DNA of 64,000 bases from a phage: the sequence record PX880099.1; one strand, written 5' to 3'. Under the pieces are notes generated by a model. It did not search any database. It saw only the letters and a list, made by a program, of their open reading frames with translations, and was not told the origin of the DNA. Shown here in pieces: positions 1,389 to 10,534 of this stretch. A program made the translations under genes and the position numbers. How positions within the stretch are numbered: position 1 is the stretch's first letter; the number at the start of each line of letters is the position of its first letter.

Positions 1389-1562
1389 GATAATAAATAG
1401 GGCTTGCAATAGTCCTATTTTTTGTTATACTTATTGAACGGGCGGCACCTGGGAGCAGGTGAAGATAATCACCGGAAGATCCCGCTATATATCGATAGCT
1501 AATACCTATCAAACAACAAAACATCAAAGAGATAAACTATCAAATCTTTACAATCCTACCTA

Positions 1563-1591
1563 TTGACACCGGATCACGCTTACATTATTAT
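1563..1591 (+). promoter_or_regulatory. sigma70-like promoter with CACGTAGGGCGG leader and hairpin
   Basis: TTGACA 1563-1568, TATTAT-like -10, then TCACGTAGGGCGGGAATGTTTCCCGCC. Confidence 0.6.
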
Positions 1592-1639
1592 TTATCACGT
1601 AGGGCGGGAATGTTTCCCGCCTGATTTAGGAGTCATATC

Positions 1640-1873
1640 ATGATCGAACAAATTAAAAGCACTAAACCAAATGTTAACGGTAATGTTTCTCACTTTATCG
1701 GGGATAATGAAAGAGGTACACCGTACGCCGCCGTAACCGTTCAACCGAACGGGGATTATTGGTTTACCGTGTACGGATCTTACTCTTTTGGACGTTCGGC
1801 ACATGATAAGATCTTGCAAGTGGTTAAGCCTACTGGGAAGAATATCACAGCAGAAAAATTTTATAAAAAATAG
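1640..1873 (+). CDS. hypothetical protein (77 aa)
   Basis: ORF with SD AGGAGTCATATCATG after promoter 1563. Confidence 0.55.
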   Translation: MIEQIKSTKPNVNGNVSHFIGDNERGTPYAAVTVQPNGDYWFTVYGSYSFGRSAHDKILQVVKPTGKNITAEKFYKK

Positions 1874-1874
1874 C

Positions 1875-1903
1875 TTGCTTTATATACCCTGTTAACTTAT
1901 AGT
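1875..1903 (+). promoter_or_regulatory. sigma70-like promoter (TTGCTT-17-TATAGT) with GCGTAGGGCG leader
   Basis: -35 1875-1880, -10 1898-1903, leader TATTGCGTAGGGCGAGC. Confidence 0.5.
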
Positions 1904-1951
1904 TATTGCGTAGGGCGAGCAATACAGCAAGCCCACAAAGAGGAAAATAAA

Positions 1952-2320
1952 ATGAGCAAATCAGCAATTAAAGCACTTGAAAAAGCACAAGAAGTGATCG
2001 CAACGTCAACCACTGGCGCAAAGGTTAATCTCGTTTGTTATCTGACAGATGAAACTATCCGTAAAAATTGGCGTAATGCTGATTTACTGGCTTGCTTATT
2101 GATTAATAGTGTCGCTAATGCTTTCCAGTGTGAAACAGCCGAGAGCCTGGAGGAAAACTTGTTTGATAATATGGATCAAGCCATTGAAACCTATATACAA
2201 TCAAACCTGGATAGCTGGAACAGTAAAACATGGCCCGACAATTTACGCGATACAACTGATCAACTGATCCGCCTTGCCCTGATGGTTGAACGCGATAACG
2301 TTTACAACAGCACAAAGTAA
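1952..2320 (+). CDS. hypothetical protein (122 aa)
   Basis: ORF with SD GAGGAAAATAAAATG. Confidence 0.55.
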   Translation: MSKSAIKALEKAQEVIATSTTGAKVNLVCYLTDETIRKNWRNADLLACLLINSVANAFQCETAESLEENLFDNMDQAIETYIQSNLDSWNSKTWPDNLRDTTDQLIRLALMVERDNVYNSTK

Positions 2321-2330
2321 GATTATACAA

Positions 2331-2356
2331 GGGCGCACTAAGCGCCCTTTAACGTA
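2331..2356 (+). terminator. intrinsic terminator-like hairpin GGGCGCACTAAGCGCCC + TTT
   Basis: 7-bp GC stem followed by short T run; sister copy at 2895. Confidence 0.5.
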
Positions 2357-2385
2357 AAGAAATGTAAATAATGCGCTATCCCCTA

Positions 2386-2414
2386 TTGACAGGGGATCGG
2401 CGTTATATTATATT
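2386..2414 (+). promoter_or_regulatory. sigma70-like promoter (TTGACA-17-TATATT)
   Basis: TTGACA 2386-2391; TATATT 2409-2414. Confidence 0.5.
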
Positions 2415-2459
2415 TAACTTACTGGCAGCAAACAACGAAACGAAACAAAGGACAACATC

Positions 2460-2879
2460 ATGAACATTAAATCAAATAATCCAGCTTACTCCTTCGATAA
2501 CGCTTTTTGTCACGGTAGCGCCGCCAAAGGCTTCGAAATCGATGGTAAATTGGTTATCGTGAACGTTGACGGGGAAGAGGTTGCAGTGTATCCGGTAAAC
2601 GATGTTAAAAGCCGTTTACAATGCCGCATGGATGTTACCGCATATCAGCTTGATCCGGTCCGTGTAGTTGCCTTGGTGTTAGAGGAAGAGATCAAAGCAA
2701 TGCATCACAGTAATAAGTTTATTGGTGACGCGCAGGATAATATGAACGTTTGCCGCCATAAAGTTAATGAAGCATTGAAAGAATGCGGTTTTAAGGATCT
2801 GATGATTAAACGTGATGAAAAATTCCGCTTTCGTAATGACCTGGCAAACCGGATCTACTCAATCTATGAAGCGTTATAA
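2460..2879 (+). CDS. hypothetical protein (139 aa)
   Basis: ORF with SD AAAGGACAACATCATG. Confidence 0.55.
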   Translation: MNIKSNNPAYSFDNAFCHGSAAKGFEIDGKLVIVNVDGEEVAVYPVNDVKSRLQCRMDVTAYQLDPVRVVALVLEEEIKAMHHSNKFIGDAQDNMNVCRHKVNEALKECGFKDLMIKRDEKFRFRNDLANRIYSIYEAL

Positions 2880-2894
2880 TTGACAACAAAACAA

Positions 2895-2920
2895 GGGCGC
2901 ACCAAGCGCCCTTTCTTTTT
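2895..2920 (+). terminator. rho-independent terminator GGGCGCACCAAGCGCCC + TTTCTTTTT
   Basis: GC stem followed by T-rich tract; closes the left gene block. Confidence 0.65.
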
Positions 2921-3505
2921 GCCCGAACAATATTGATAGCTTTCGCCTATGAAAAACCGACACAGAACAAAACTGAATAAATCGCGGTATCGAGCTAATC
3001 AACCAGCAAACGAATAACCATACCTCCCAGGGTTACAGGCTGTTAGAGAGCCATTTAGAGCGGTTAAAATCGATCAACAACCAACAACAAACCATCAAAA
3101 ACACCCTTTTACCTCCTTTCTAGTGCAATGATAACCATTATCATCTACCCATGATTATCTATGCAATATAAGCGCATAATTATAATGTTGATAATAGTTC
3201 GCAACAACTAACCAACAAACAACATAAAACAATAAGCAAACTAATCATAATCAAAGGAATAATAGCAAGATGATTGATAACGACAAACAATCAAACCATG
3301 ATGAATACTAAGCAAGATAACGATAACACGACAAAACAACCAACTAACGAACAATAACAAACGAAACCATTAAAATAATAACTATTAGCAAAATAGTGCA
3401 TGAATGAAATCATTACAAAACGAATCATTCATAGAGTCATCATTAGCACGCTATGCCGGACACATAGCGAGCTAATAATAAGCCAACTACACCCCAACAA
3501 TCATA

Positions 3506-4419: not shown

Positions 4420-4794
4420 ATGCAAGAGAGTAAAAATGTTCCGTTGAGCAGTGCAACATTGCTTCGCTTCTATAAAGCATGGATTGCCAACTATCCTGCA
4501 ATGAATCGCACAACGAGTGGCTTATGTGGTTGTCTGGTAGATTATGTAGATGATTTTGTTGGTGAGACAACTAGAGAAGAAGATAGAAGATGGCGTGATC
4601 ATTTGTTGGACCGTTTGAAATATGAAATGAGGAAACAATTTACATGTGCAGGGTTGGACTACAATCTTCCGTTCAATGCAGATTGCATGGATTACCTTTC
4701 AGAGTGTATAAACTTGGCGTGTCATACCAACACGTTACGTCTTCAATGGGTGAAAGACAGAATTGAAGATGCAAATAATGCTTGCATTGAATAA
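4420..4794 (+). CDS. hypothetical protein, paralog family A (member 1 of 5)
   Basis: SD GAGAGGAGATTATCATG; shares FYKAW..GLCGCL..LPF..WVKDR motifs with 9603, 12928, 16225, 17530. Confidence 0.6.
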   Translation: MQESKNVPLSSATLLRFYKAWIANYPAMNRTTSGLCGCLVDYVDDFVGETTREEDRRWRDHLLDRLKYEMRKQFTCAGLDYNLPFNADCMDYLSECINLACHTNTLRLQWVKDRIEDANNACIE

Positions 4795-4843: not shown

Positions 4844-5053
4844 ATGAAGAATTTGAAAACTGTCACAATGTTCTTGACTAATCCTACACGTGTGCAAGCA
4901 CTGGCTAAAGCCAGCCGTGTAGCTGTAGAATTCCAAAACTTTAAGCCGTCCGTTGTGACAGGCAGTGAAACGTGTGTTATCGATTTCATTAACGAATACT
5001 TCCGAGGGAATCCGGTTGGTCGTTACTTTATTAAGGGTCTGAAGGATGCATAG
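4844..5053 (+). CDS. hypothetical protein (69 aa)
   Basis: ORF with SD GAGGAGATGAAATG. Confidence 0.5.
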   Translation: MKNLKTVTMFLTNPTRVQALAKASRVAVEFQNFKPSVVTGSETCVIDFINEYFRGNPVGRYFIKGLKDA

Positions 5054-5054
5054 C

Positions 5055-5276
5055 ATGAAACGCATGAAAATTCGTATTGAGAATGATGGTGGTTATAAAG
5101 GACTTACCCGTGCAAAATTCCCACTTGTGTTGGAAGCTACGGTGGAATACAGTGGGCTTGCTCATGTGCGATTCTCGAAGATGATGGAAGTGCAGGAATG
5201 GTTTTGGGACGAGATAGATGCACGAGAAGGGGAAGATTATGTTTTCTTTCCTCACGAATATGAAATTGTTTATTAA
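5055..5276 (+). CDS. hypothetical protein (73 aa)
   Basis: ATG 5055 immediately after upstream stop, SD AAGGA 9 nt upstream; track ORF starts 5046. Confidence 0.45.
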   Translation: MKRMKIRIENDGGYKGLTRAKFPLVLEATVEYSGLAHVRFSKMMEVQEWFWDEIDAREGEDYVFFPHEYEIVY

Positions 5277-5288
5277 AGGTTGTATGCA

Positions 5289-5528
5289 ATGATCACACCA
5301 CAACAAAATGAAGCAGCAATGGATCTTCTTGATAGTTTGTATTTCGATAATTGGTACTCTGAATGTGAATGGATGAATATGCAAACTCTGAAAGAGAAGA
5401 CAAAAGCGTTGATTACAGTAGATCAATTTCTTGCAGAGACGGAAAGAATGAATTATGATATGGCATCTCGCGCACGACGCGTTTCCATTTTCAATAAAAT
5501 GTTAGCATTATGGGGAGGTAGAAAATGA
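5289..5528 (+). CDS. hypothetical protein (79 aa)
   Basis: Track ORF begins at TTG 5280; first ATG at 5289 with SD AAAGG. Confidence 0.45.
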   Translation: MITPQQNEAAMDLLDSLYFDNWYSECEWMNMQTLKEKTKALITVDQFLAETERMNYDMASRARRVSIFNKMLALWGGRK

Positions 5529-5986
5529 GACAATTCACTATACTGGCAGCTTATGTGCAATGTGTTCACGATTATGTTAGTGCTCATACAGGTTTGCTGG
5601 AAGTTACCAGTAAAATTGAAGGTAATATGGGTACTGTCTGTGTGCAACATACTTTATCCAATGTGCCGTTTAAAGTGTTCACTGTTGTAGCTGCCGATTA
5701 CAATCGTGTAGATGTGCGTTTCTTGGATCATAATTTTCGTAACGCACTAGATAATATCGAAGATTATCTTCCCGTGAAACCTTTGTCATTTCCACCAAGT
5801 CGTGCAAATAATGTAGTGACAAATCTTAATGAAAGAAATGTGGCTATGCACAAAAAAGTCCGTCAACTGAAAATGCTGATGGAAATGCAAGAAGAGATTG
5901 AAAAAGAACTGAAAGAAGATTTTGGTATGCTTCCAAAAGACGCTTTGAAATGGTATGATGAACTAGGAGGAGAAAGTTATGAATAA
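5525..5986 (+). CDS. hypothetical protein (153 aa)
   Basis: SD GGGGAGGTAGAAAATG; ATGA overlap with upstream gene. Confidence 0.55.
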   Translation: MRQFTILAAYVQCVHDYVSAHTGLLEVTSKIEGNMGTVCVQHTLSNVPFKVFTVVAADYNRVDVRFLDHNFRNALDNIEDYLPVKPLSFPPSRANNVVTNLNERNVAMHKKVRQLKMLMEMQEEIEKELKEDFGMLPKDALKWYDELGGESYE

Positions 5987-6173
5987 AGGAACTACTGTAT
6001 ATTTAGTGACTAAGAACACCCCAGGTTGGAATCAGTGCACAACGACTCCATATAAGATTTGTGCAACACTGGAACTAGCACAACGTGCAGAAGCGGAAGT
6101 TGATGCTATGCGATACAGCTACGGGGAGATCATTCCTTTCACTCTGGAACAAGAAGGAGCACATAGTGTTTAA
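5979..6173 (+). CDS. hypothetical protein (64 aa)
   Basis: SD AGGAGGAGAAAGTTATG. Confidence 0.5.
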   Translation: MNKGTTVYLVTKNTPGWNQCTTTPYKICATLELAQRAEAEVDAMRYSYGEIIPFTLEQEGAHSV

Positions 6174-6621
6174 GGTAGGGTTTACTTATAAATTCAAAAG
6201 CGTTGCTGACCAAGGAGATATGGCAACACATGACAAAGCAAATATTGCTGTTTGCCAAGCGATTGGAAACGAAGTTTTCAAAGTTATGAATACAGATGAT
6301 AAGTATGGTCATGTTCTTGAGTTTTATATCAATGGTACCCTCTATACAGCAGGTGTTACCCCAGGGTTTAATTCGTATACTTATTTGATTGATAACGAAG
6401 AATTTAAATATTTTGAAGAAGTAAAGGAGGAAACAATGGGTAAAGCAGAACCACAATGGCATGTTGTGATCGTAGGATCAGAGTGTGTAGATGTTTGTTC
6501 TAGTTTTGAAAAAGCTTCTGAAGTCGCTACAAAAGCTAAGAAGGACTATCCGTCGAAGACGGTTGAGATTTACGCTCGTGTTGCAGTAGCAAACGCCACA
6601 ATCACTATTGATAAGGAGTAA
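6166..6621 (+). CDS. hypothetical protein, tandem paralog family B (member 1 of 4)
   Basis: GTG start 6166 after SD GAAGGAG; N-terminus VFKVGFTYKFKS matches the MFKVGF.Y.FKS starts of the next three genes. Confidence 0.5.
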   Translation: MFKVGFTYKFKSVADQGDMATHDKANIAVCQAIGNEVFKVMNTDDKYGHVLEFYINGTLYTAGVTPGFNSYTYLIDNEEFKYFEEVKEETMGKAEPQWHVVIVGSECVDVCSSFEKASEVATKAKKDYPSKTVEIYARVAVANATITIDKE

Positions 6622-6626
6622 AGCCA

Positions 6627-7085
6627 ATGTTCAAAGAAGGTCATGTCTACCGTTTCCAGGATGAGGATTATATGCGACTATATTCTACCTTTGATAACAG
6701 TATTGCGGCTATCATTGGAGAGAATTTTTTCGAGGTGTTGAGCACTGATGCAAATGGTAATATCTTGTCAATGGTTGTAATAGGTATGAGAGATGGTATT
6801 ATCACTGCTGGTGATGGGGATCGTTACATAATCAATTCTGCTCATATAGATTATTTTGTTGACGGTGGTGTTCGTGGTGGTCGTGGAAAACCCCAAGAAG
6901 AACCTGTTGATACGACAAAAGAAGAGTGGTATGTTGTAATGACTGATGACACCTGTATTTCTGGATTTGAAAGTTATGAAGAAGCTTTGAAAGAAGCAGC
7001 AGAGCATAAAATGGCTAATCCTACAGAAGAGGTTGAAGTTTATAAACGTCTGGTTGTTGCTACCATCGGCGTATCTTTTGTTTAA
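6627..7085 (+). CDS. hypothetical protein, paralog family B
   Basis: N-terminus MFKEGHVYRFQD; C-terminal module WYVVM..YEEALKEA..VEVYKRLVV shared with family. Confidence 0.55.
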   Translation: MFKEGHVYRFQDEDYMRLYSTFDNSIAAIIGENFFEVLSTDANGNILSMVVIGMRDGIITAGDGDRYIINSAHIDYFVDGGVRGGRGKPQEEPVDTTKEEWYVVMTDDTCISGFESYEEALKEAAEHKMANPTEEVEVYKRLVVATIGVSFV

Positions 7086-7097
7086 AAGGGGAATGTT

Positions 7098-7883
7098 ATG
7101 TTTAAAGTAGGTTTTGTTTATAATTTCAAATCGGAAGATACCAAAAAGAATTTTGGTAAAGCTAGTATTCGTAACGCTTTCTTTGTAGGTTGCATTCAAG
7201 ATAGCAAGTTTAAAGTTTTAGATGTTGATTTTCTAGGTTCTGTGTCAAAGGTGAAGGTATTAGACACAAATAAGATCATCGAAGGTAGTTCTGGGCTTTT
7301 TCCTGAAGGCTATAAGCTTGTAAGTTGTATAGATTATAGTCGTTTTGAAGAACATCCTCCTGAAGATTATGAGGATTCTCCTACAGGAGGTTGTGTCTTT
7401 GTAGAAGGTGGTGTCTATAAGTTTGCAAGTGAACAAGATCGTAAGCTTTTCGCCAATTATATTGACGGCGGACAAACGACAAACAATGTAAACCGAAAAA
7501 TTTCCGATCTTATTGGAGATGATCCTTTCGTGATCACAAAGATGGTTGGACAAGATGTAACAGCAATCCGTAGGCTTGTATGTAATACAAATCATGTAGC
7601 AGGTGAAGGTTGGTTCAAAGAAGCTTGTGCACTGCTAATCAAAAGCGATAACCCTTACTTTAAAAATATTAAAAATGCTGTTGAGCCTAAACAAGAGGAA
7701 CCCGCAGCGAATTTTAAACACTATGCTATTGTTAAAGGTATGAATGTCCAACTGGTGTCACATTCTTACGAAGAGATCGCCACAGAAGCAAAAAAGATGA
7801 AGGAAGAATACCCAATTTCTACTGTTGAGATCTATGAGCGTATTGGTGTTGTTAGTATTGAGCCTACTGCGGTAATAAAATAA
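7098..7883 (+). CDS. hypothetical protein, paralog family B (261 aa)
   Basis: N-terminus MFKVGFVYNFKS; C-terminal ..YEEIATEAKK..VEIYERIGVV. Confidence 0.55.
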   Translation: MFKVGFVYNFKSEDTKKNFGKASIRNAFFVGCIQDSKFKVLDVDFLGSVSKVKVLDTNKIIEGSSGLFPEGYKLVSCIDYSRFEEHPPEDYEDSPTGGCVFVEGGVYKFASEQDRKLFANYIDGGQTTNNVNRKISDLIGDDPFVITKMVGQDVTAIRRLVCNTNHVAGEGWFKEACALLIKSDNPYFKNIKNAVEPKQEEPAANFKHYAIVKGMNVQLVSHSYEEIATEAKKMKEEYPISTVEIYERIGVVSIEPTAVIK

Positions 7884-7892
7884 GGAGCTATT

Positions 7893-8330
7893 ATGTTCAA
7901 AGCTAATGCTGTTTACTGTTTCAAAAGTAAAGCTGCCTGTGAAGCTTTCTCTGTGATCTCGGATGAAAATTTCAAAATGGCAGCTTTGATTGAAGGGTCT
8001 TGTTTCCGCGTCGAAGATGTTAGTGAATCAGGGTCTGTTTGCTCATTGACTTTATTGGACAGCGGGGATATTATTGAAGCTGGACAGTATCCGTTCAGAA
8101 GTTGGGAGATATTGTTAGCTCGCGGAGAGCGTAACTTTTTTATGTGTGTGTCTGCGGGGGAAGTTGTGAAAGAAACTAATGATGTTTCTGTTTACAATTC
8201 TGAATTTATAAGTTATAGTGAGTATCAACATCTGGAAGGCATTGTTGGTCACTTGTTATCTCTGATTGACGTTGAATGTGACCTGCCTGAATCATTGAAA
8301 GAAGAATTGAAAGCATTAGATCTGTTATAA
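7893..8330 (+). CDS. hypothetical protein, paralog family B (N-terminal domain only)
   Basis: N-terminus MFKANAVYCFKS. Confidence 0.55.
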   Translation: MFKANAVYCFKSKAACEAFSVISDENFKMAALIEGSCFRVEDVSESGSVCSLTLLDSGDIIEAGQYPFRSWEILLARGERNFFMCVSAGEVVKETNDVSVYNSEFISYSEYQHLEGIVGHLLSLIDVECDLPESLKEELKALDLL

Positions 8331-9602: not shown

Positions 9603-9917
9603 ATGTCAGAAGAACTTAAAGAATTTTATCAGGCATATCATAACTGGCTATTAGCTGGTGCTCCAGATAATAATCCTTTCTGGCATGATAAAGGGTTATG
9701 TAGCTGCCTATATCTTTGGTCTGGTGGTTATGATGACCTAAATTATGAAATGCAAATGCAATTCCGCGAAGCAGGTTTGTCTGAAGAATACCCGTTTGAT
9801 GATGGGGATTGGTTTAAATATGATTTTGCACAAAGAAACGGGCTGCTACATTTGAATGCTGCTCGTATAAAATGGGTAAAAGATCATGTCACACAGGAGG
9901 ATGTGCAATGCCTATAG
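9603..9917 (+). CDS. hypothetical protein, paralog family A (member 2)
   Basis: FYQAYHNWLLAGAPDNNPF..GLCSCL..IKWVKDH. Confidence 0.6.
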   Translation: MSEELKEFYQAYHNWLLAGAPDNNPFWHDKGLCSCLYLWSGGYDDLNYEMQMQFREAGLSEEYPFDDGDWFKYDFAQRNGLLHLNAARIKWVKDHVTQEDVQCL

Positions 9918-10312: not shown

Positions 10313-10534
10313 ATGAAAATTAGAGTTTGTGATGTATTGGGTTATGTTGGTTTTGAGAATGTTCAGATTCCTTTTGTTGTTGAAGCACATCTTGTTAGTG
10401 AGGATATGACAACATTCTTTGTTACGATAGAAGAAATGTCCAAAGTTGAGGGATGGGAGTGGTTTGAAGAAGATGTTTGGGAAGGTTGTGATTACGTATT
10501 TTTCTCTGACGAAGTGAATGTTCTTGCGGAGTAG
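10313..10534 (+). CDS. hypothetical protein (73 aa)
   Basis: ORF directly abutting upstream stop. Confidence 0.5.
   Translation: MKIRVCDVLGYVGFENVQIPFVVEAHLVSEDMTTFFVTIEEMSKVEGWEWFEEDVWEGCDYVFFSDEVNVLAE

What the first reader, a model, noticed from the sequence alone, without database searches (positions are those of the whole stretch)
6166..8330. Tandem array of four paralogs (family B) with a shared MFKVGFxYxFKS N-terminus
Four consecutive genes begin with near-identical N-termini (VFKVGFTYKFKS, MFKEGHVYRFQD, MFKVGFVYNFKS, MFKANAVYCFKS). Three of them also share a C-terminal module (W-[HY]-V-V..., (Y/F)-E-E-A..., VE(I/V)Y-x-R). The third carries a large insertion and the fourth has only the N-domain, consistent with tandem duplication and domain shuffling.
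Basis: seen in the sequence. Interest (0 to 1): 0.5.

Follow-up and report, generated by a model that had tools for sequence, protein, structure and literature searches.

The report
Tandem GoF-like early-gene array
Four neighbouring small genes of this E. coli phage are diverged copies of one two-part protein related to the phage T4 early protein GoF, and sister phages carry one to four of them, joined in different ways; a real but fairly ordinary gene family whose function is still unknown.

Summary
Window 6166-8330 holds four tightly packed + strand genes: A (151 aa), B (152), C (261) and D (145). They are homologous far beyond the first 12 residues. Two details need correcting. The "insertion" in C is a second copy of the N-domain, so C is N-N-C. 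D carries a conserved acidic tail of its own.

The N-domain belongs to the GoF/Frd.2/MotB.1 beta-barrel family of T4-like phages (SH3/"LSm-like" fold; PMC12152347). The evidence is reciprocal PHROG hits, an HMM built only from window sequences that finds T4 GoF, hhalign (91%), and an AlphaFold2 model with pLDDT about 90.

The C-module is a small strand-strand-helix-strand unit of about 50 aa with no Pfam family. It follows a disordered linker.

The window is a Phapecoctavirus. Relatives carry NC|NC|NNC|N+, NC|NNC|N+, NC|NC|N+, NC|N+ or a single NC. Crossovers lie in the conserved first codons, in the linker, and at the ribosome-binding site. This directly supports tandem duplication, deletion and domain shuffling.

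Orthologue dN/dS is 0-0.44, so the genes are under purifying selection. Function is inferred only: dispensable, probably early, host-takeover binding proteins. It is a new member of a known kind, of modest interest.

The parts
6166..6621 (+). Gene A, 151 aa, architecture N-C. N-domain 6166-6426, C-module about 6445-6618. GTG start with AAGGAG at 6154-6159.
   Evidence: best family phrog_3710 at 3.6e-16, phrog_622 at 6.5e-10
6627..7085 (+). Gene B, 152 aa, architecture N-C. N-domain 6627-6866 (aa 1-82), disordered linker aa 84-98, C-module aa about 100-145.
   Evidence: AF2 model pLDDT 80; phrog_3710 at 4e-34
7098..7883 (+). Gene C, 261 aa, architecture N-N-C. N1 7098-7358, N2 7395-7673, C-module about 7710-7880.
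   Evidence: two N-domain hits in one ORF; BLASTP of A and B to aa 100-257 and separately to aa 1-44/55; phrog_3710 at 2.4e-42
7385..7390 (+). AGGAGG inside gene C, 4 nt before codon 100 (GTC), where the second N-domain begins (V-F-V-E-G-G-V-Y-K-F). Probably the relic Shine-Dalgarno sequence of a formerly separate gene.
   Evidence: read from the sequence; inference
7893..8330 (+). Gene D, 145 aa. N-domain 7893-8153 plus a conserved acidic helical tail 8154-8327 (LEGIVGHLLSLIDVECDLP...).
   Evidence: phrog_22975 at 2.4e-98 and phrog_622 at 5.9e-9; tail conserved in P0023

Best explanation
This is a tandem, co-oriented and probably co-transcribed array of four accessory genes. It lies in the block of small genes of unknown function at the left end of a Phapecoctavirus (phAPEC8-like) genome.

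The array encodes five copies of one N-terminal domain of about 85 aa. That domain is a five-stranded SH3-like ('LSm-like') beta-barrel homologous to the N-domain of the T4 early proteins GoF and Frd.2. The shared MFKxGxxYxFKS motif is strand beta1, whose aromatic residues form part of the core. In three genes a disordered acidic linker joins the barrel to a strand-strand-helix-strand C-module of about 50 aa. The fourth gene has a different acidic helical tail.

Shown here: the array evolves by unequal or illegitimate recombination between paralogues, at the conserved first codons, in the linker, and at the ribosome-binding site. This produces gene gain and loss, N/C chimeras and an N-N-C fusion. 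Each copy is nevertheless kept under purifying selection.

Inferred function: abundant, individually dispensable proteins, probably made early, that help take over the host by binding a partner through the variable surface of the barrel. By analogy with GoF, the pathway affected is most likely host or phage mRNA fate, acting post-transcriptionally. Most copies are strongly acidic, so I think the direct ligand is more likely a host protein than naked RNA.
For: Homology among the four genes.

Link to GoF and Frd.2:
- T4 GoF and Frd.2 belong to phrog_622 (E 5e-38 and 4e-46), and GoF also hits phrog_3710 at 8e-12.
- A, C and D hit phrog_622 at 1e-9 to 1e-13. A, B and C belong to phrog_3710, and PHROGs named goF are also hit.
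- An HMM built only from the five window N-domains finds T4 GoF at 22.8 bits and Frd.2 at 13.8 bits. It also finds both in six-frame scans of T4 DNA.
- hhalign of the N profile against GoF gives 90.9% probability, E 1e-6.

Fold:
- AF2 model of B: N-domain pLDDT about 90 with five strands, linker pLDDT below 50, C-module about 88.
- 56 BFVD matches at E<=0.001; the named ones are mostly proteins of T4-like phages.

Recombination and copy number:
- Array variants and junctions.
- N and C identities disagree: L012 gene 1 has an N-domain closest to B (41%) but a C-module closest to A (40%, against 21% to B).
- tblastn frequencies of orthologues: D in 61 records, B in 58, A in 24, C in 17.

Selection: dN/dS is 0-0.44.

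Charge: pI is 4.4-5.7 and net charge -4 to -15.

Position: in phi92 the single copy is the third gene after the left terminal repeat.

Biology of GoF (early, abundant, dispensable; the D25Y mutant stabilises mRNA but wild type does not): PMC12152347.
Against: No experiment bears on these proteins. Timing of expression is inferred from position only, and no transcriptome was found.

Wild-type GoF itself has no known activity. Only the D25Y mutant stabilises RNA, so the functional analogy is weak.

Sequence identity to GoF is only 17-29%, and the match to MotB.1 is marginal.

The AF2 alignment had only 17 sequences. Foldseek against the PDB gave nothing significant; the best match was FeoA at E 0.66.

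Promoter and terminator scans were at background level, so co-transcription rests on gene spacing alone.
Confidence: 0.6

Rival explanations
1. The barrels are true RNA-binding, Hfq/LSm-type chaperones. They bind phage or host transcripts directly and protect them from nucleases, and each paralogue has its own RNA specificity.
Confidence: 0.2
2. The array is a counter-defence or host-range cassette. Each paralogue neutralises a different variable host factor or immune system, and the turnover of copies reflects an arms race.
For: Presence and absence vary sharply among phages that are 96-98% identical. Chimeras and fusions occur. Surfaces are variable while the core is conserved. The location is among accessory genes at the genome end. 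The proteins are acidic and small, as are many known phage inhibitors of host proteins (own knowledge).
Against: There is no match to any known anti-defence protein. dN/dS between orthologues is low (0-0.44), not the signature of positive selection, although the sample is small and the comparison is gene-wide. No link between array content and host was tested.
Confidence: 0.15
3. The barrel is a Tudor/KOW-type module that docks on RNA polymerase or Rho and alters termination. This was the original antitermination idea for goF.
Confidence: 0.05

Closest known systems
T4 GoF (comC-alpha) / Frd.2 / MotB.1 family of 'LSm-like fold' early proteins (Kim et al. 2025, PMC12152347; phrog_622)
   Same: Homologous N-terminal beta-barrel of about 85-90 aa, starting at residue 1 with an aromatic-rich beta1. 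A flexible acidic linker is followed by a small variable C-terminal domain. The proteins are small and acidic, several paralogues occur per genome, and the copies are dispensable.
   Different: The family was described only for Tevenvirinae; here it is in Stephanstirmvirinae. [quoted passage not shown] One gene has two barrels. The C-module (strand-strand-helix-strand, about 50 aa) is longer than the strand-helix C-terminus of GoF and Frd.2 that I read from their sequences (inference). Identity to GoF is only 17-29%.
FeoA / DtxR-IdeR C-terminal SH3-like domains
   Different: No sequence similarity, no metal-binding histidines noted, and the scores are below significance in Foldseek. The resemblance is of fold only.
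ClpS (adaptor of the ClpAP protease)
   Different: 13-16% identity and no hit by sequence profile. ClpS has three helices against one here. The same module also matches de novo designed strand-strand-helix-strand miniproteins, so it is a generic minimal fold.
Gene 'accordions': tandem amplification of accessory genes in viruses (poxvirus K3L; T4 tifA-dmd region; own knowledge)
   Same: Copy number of an accessory gene changes by unequal recombination between tandem copies.
   Different: Here the copies are old and diverged (22-32% identity) and are maintained as distinct genes. They are not recent identical amplifications.

Membership tests
GoF/Frd.2/MotB.1 phage beta-barrel ('LSm-like fold') family | Sequence homology of the N-terminal domain to the GoF/Frd.2 N-domain | tested here: met
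   Reciprocal PHROG hits. The window-only HMM finds GoF at 22.8 bits and Frd.2 at 13.8 bits. hhalign gives 90.9% probability, E 1e-6. MotB.1 matches only marginally (4.7 bits).
GoF/Frd.2/MotB.1 phage beta-barrel ('LSm-like fold') family | Bent five-stranded antiparallel beta-sheet N-domain | tested here: met
GoF/Frd.2/MotB.1 phage beta-barrel ('LSm-like fold') family | Flexible linker followed by a variable C-terminal domain | tested here: met
   Linker residues 84-98 have pLDDT below 50. The C-module at 100-145 has pLDDT about 88. D carries a different tail.
GoF/Frd.2/MotB.1 phage beta-barrel ('LSm-like fold') family | Early expression, abundance, dispensability | not testable with these tools
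   Only indirect evidence. The array lies next to the left terminal repeat in phi92. A and C are naturally absent from most sister phages. No transcriptome was found.
GoF/Frd.2/MotB.1 phage beta-barrel ('LSm-like fold') family | Effect on mRNA stability (known only for the GoF D25Y mutant) | not testable with these tools
   Needs reporter and RNA half-life assays as in PMC12152347.
Sm/LSm/Hfq superfamily proper | Sm1/Sm2 sequence motifs, an N-terminal helix before beta1, and ring oligomers | tested here: not met
ClpS | ClpS sequence family and its three-helix, three-strand core | tested here: not met

The most novel reading that the evidence does not exclude
The array is a modular specificity system. 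The barrels are interchangeable recognition modules, and the conserved first codons and the linker act as recombination joints. Phages can thereby swap, fuse or drop cassettes and retarget different host factors, such as RNA-degrading or RNA-sensing defences, Rho, or proteolytic adaptors. Array content would then help determine host range within Stephanstirmvirinae.
Probability: 0.12. Interest if true: 0.65.

Novelty: new member of a known kind. Interest (0 to 1): 0.3.

Why it matters
It extends the recently defined GoF/Frd.2 beta-barrel family beyond T4-like phages. It also shows that this family can form a tandem, recombining array with double-barrel fusions and a previously undescribed C-terminal module.

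The natural variants with 1, 2, 3 or 4 genes in phages that are otherwise 96-98% identical are a ready-made genetic series. They could be used to ask what GoF-type proteins do, a question open since goF mutants were isolated as suppressors of rho-mutant hosts. The function itself remains unknown, so the finding is useful rather than surprising.

Tried and rejected
- Single-sequence AlphaFold2 of gene C failed (pLDDT 37). A 17-sequence alignment was needed.
- The word-indexed protein searches returned only close relatives.
- The IMG/VR pattern scan gave one locus.
- The afdb50 fold library was unavailable.
- The exhaustive HMM search returned giant VCBS-repeat adhesins among its hits. They match only profile positions of about 35-64, summed over many repeats. 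I rejected them as motif-level false positives after reading the sequences.
- Weak Pfam hits were all below their cut-offs and are not used: DUF2782 (1e-4), FRD2 (0.03), and DUF7336 on the C-module (0.013; 2 of 19 members).
- PDB sequence searches found only a de novo design, H10. Foldseek against the PDB found nothing significant.
- Promoter and terminator scans were at background level.
- Pseudogene or junk duplication is rejected by dN/dS of 0-0.44 and intact Shine-Dalgarno sequences.
- The 'insertion' reading for gene C is rejected by the domain hits.

Full report
**What is there**

The window is about 96-98% identical to E. coli myoviruses of the genus Phapecoctavirus (phAPEC8/ESCO13 group, Stephanstirmvirinae). 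At 6166-8330 there are four + strand genes:
- A, 6166-6621. It has a GTG start preceded by AAGGAG, and ECO340P1 is annotated with the same start.
- B, 6627-7085.
- C, 7098-7883.
- D, 7893-8330.

The genes are separated by only 5, 12 and 9 nt, and each has a Shine-Dalgarno sequence. No promoter-like or terminator-like signal stands out above background. Co-transcription is therefore inferred from spacing alone.

**Is the similarity real?**

Yes. BLASTP gives these results:

| Pair | Region | E-value |
|---|---|---|
| A - B | full length | 4e-16 |
| A - C | C aa 100-257 | 9e-9 |
| B - C | C aa 100-254 | 5e-7 |
| A - C | aa 1-44 of each | 1.5e-5 |
| C - D | C 1-69, D 1-67 (39% identity) | 2e-9 |
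| A - D | about 85 aa | 2e-4 |
| B - D | about 85 aa | 3e-4 |

Gene C is therefore not an A/B-type protein with an insertion. It is an extra N-domain (aa 1-90) placed in front of a complete A/B-type unit (aa 100-261), that is N-N-C. An AGGAGG at 7385-7390 lies 4 nt before codon 100, where the second domain begins with V-F-V-E-G-G-V-Y-K-F. It looks like the relic ribosome-binding site of a once separate gene (read; inference).

D has the N-domain plus a 55-aa acidic tail. That tail is conserved in distant homologues (P0023; gene 2 of L010), so it is a module in its own right. HMMs of the N- and C-modules find five N copies and three C copies in these four genes and nothing else in the 64-kb window.

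The genes are real. dN/dS against orthologues in four sister phages is 0-0.44.

**What family is it?**

A, B and C belong to phrog_3710 and D to phrog_22975. All also hit phrog_622 and/or PHROGs named 'goF mRNA metabolism modulator'. T4 GoF and T4 Frd.2 are both members of phrog_622 (E 5e-38 and 4e-46), and GoF hits phrog_3710 at 8e-12.

An HMM built only from the five window N-domains finds T4 GoF at 22.8 bits, Frd.2 at 13.8 bits and MotB.1 marginally. It also picks goF and frd.2 out of six-frame translations of T4 DNA. hhalign of the N-domain profile against GoF gives 90.9% probability, E 1e-6.

[quoted passage not shown] They share an N-terminal five-stranded 'LSm-like' beta-barrel, a flexible linker and variable C-terminal domains (PMC12152347). 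That paper does not mention phAPEC8- or phi92-like phages. A few GenBank records already carry 'goF' labels on these genes.

**Structure**

Single-sequence AlphaFold2 of C failed. With a 17-sequence alignment, B gave mean pLDDT 80:
- Residues 1-82 have pLDDT about 90. Strands lie at 6-10, 35-40, 46-51, 58-60 and 77-82, with short helices at 13-20, 24-30 and 71-76.
- Residues 84-98 are a disordered linker.
- Residues 100-145 form a compact strand-strand-helix-strand module with pLDDT about 88.

Its invariant aromatic residues (F2, Y8, F10) are part of a set of invariant, mostly hydrophobic positions. This explains why the motif is the best-conserved part.

Foldseek against the PDB gave nothing significant. 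Against BFVD there are 56 matches at E<=0.001; apart from the phAPEC8-group proteins at the top, the named ones are mostly proteins of 140-180 aa from T4-like phages.

**Evolution of the array**

This is the best-supported part. Architectures, from HMM census of fetched loci:

| Phage or locus | Architecture |
|---|---|
| window, ECO340P1 | NC \| NC \| NNC \| N+tail |
| phAPEC8_ev052 | NC \| NNC \| N+ (the 64-aa ORF and A are absent) |
| tuntematon | NC \| NC \| N+ (C is absent) |
| phAPEC8 | NC \| N+ |
| phi92, W22 | one NC gene |
| L010 (uncultivated relative) | NNC \| N+ |
| L012 (uncultivated relative) | NC \| NC |
| L013, L014 (uncultivated relatives) | NC \| NC \| NC |

In phi92 the single copy is the third gene after the left terminal repeat.

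The junctions are visible:
- In tuntematon the crossover lies inside ATGTTYAAAG, codons 1-4 of C and D. The surviving D therefore carries C's leader and begins MFKV.
- In phAPEC8 the crossover lies in the linker (CAAGARGAACC, encoding QEEP). It fuses B's N-domain to C's C-module; this is protein P0006 (phAPEC8_0024).
- In ev052 the crossover is at the ribosome-binding site and start codon.

Deeper shuffling is also seen. L012 gene 1 has a B-like N-domain (41% identity) but an A-like C-module (40%, against 21% to B's). P0005 combines A's N-domain with a different C-module variant.

By tblastn over the phage collection, close orthologues of D occur in 61 records, of B in 58, of A in 24 and of C in 17. 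Only about five records carry all four genes.

The paralogues are old. Window N-domains are 22-32% identical to each other, about as far apart as each is from GoF at 17-27%.

The exhaustive HMM search of 1.84 billion representative proteins found only 48 hits. About a third of these were VCBS-repeat false positives. The rest were small proteins with architectures N-C, N+other, N-N, N-N-C and N-N-N.

**How it probably works**

Shown: homology, fold class, modularity, recombination and purifying selection.

Inferred: these are individually dispensable proteins, probably made early, that bind a partner through the variable barrel surface.

The only functional data for the family come from T4. GoF is early, abundant and non-essential. 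The D25Y mutant stabilises mRNA post-transcriptionally. Wild-type GoF and MotB.1 do not.

The proteins here are acidic, with pI 4.4-5.7 and net charge -4 to -15. Only the two barrels of C are near neutral. I therefore favour a protein ligand, or mimicry, within host RNA metabolism over direct RNA binding, at low confidence.

Rival readings are a true RNA chaperone, a counter-defence cassette, and an RNAP/Rho-docking Tudor/KOW-like module. They are set out with their tests in the rival-explanations section.

**Verdict**

The family is a known one, GoF/Frd.2, found here in a new phage lineage and in a new arrangement. It is a new member of a known kind, and interest is modest (0.3).

Noticed in passing
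window 4420-4794 and 9603-9917; 5046-5276 and 10313-10534: Two further paralogue pairs flank the array in the same order. The first pair are both phrog_2510 (BLASTP E 1e-11). The second pair are 73-76-aa proteins ending in DYVFF (37% identity, E 5e-13). Together they suggest an old segmental duplication of a block of about 1 kb.
   Followed up: partly
window 7385-7390: An AGGAGG lies inside gene C, 4 nt before the codon where the second N-domain starts. It is probably the relic ribosome-binding site of a gene that became fused. There is no in-frame start codon next to it.
   Followed up: partly
window 5525-5986: This 153-aa gene lies upstream of the array, separated from gene A by a 64-aa ORF (5979-6173). 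It occupies the position of phi92 gp001, which is annotated there as having a 'predicted transcription-repair coupling factor fold', and in SKA64 as 'transcription-repair coupling factor'. It has no Pfam hit, and its homology to gp001 was not tested.
   Followed up: no
public records matched: Records named Campylobacter phage B15/A150/A145/A110a, Acinetobacter phage vB_AbaM_ABPW7 and Klebsiella phage ZCKP1 carry this E. coli-phage region. Where measured, nucleotide identity is 97% (B15 and ABPW7). The host labels look doubtful.
   Followed up: no
proteins P0016, P0017, P0019, P0022, P0054 and others: Giant VCBS-repeat adhesin-like proteins reach E as low as 1e-18 against the N-domain profile. 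They do so only by summing many repeats that match profile positions of about 35-64. This is a trap for automated family expansion.
   Followed up: yes
L003 (tuntematon) 1501-3131 against window 5500-7130: This stretch, which contains genes A and B, is only 89% identical, while the DNA from gene D onward is 94-96% identical. That suggests mosaic exchange of this part of the array between phages.
   Followed up: no
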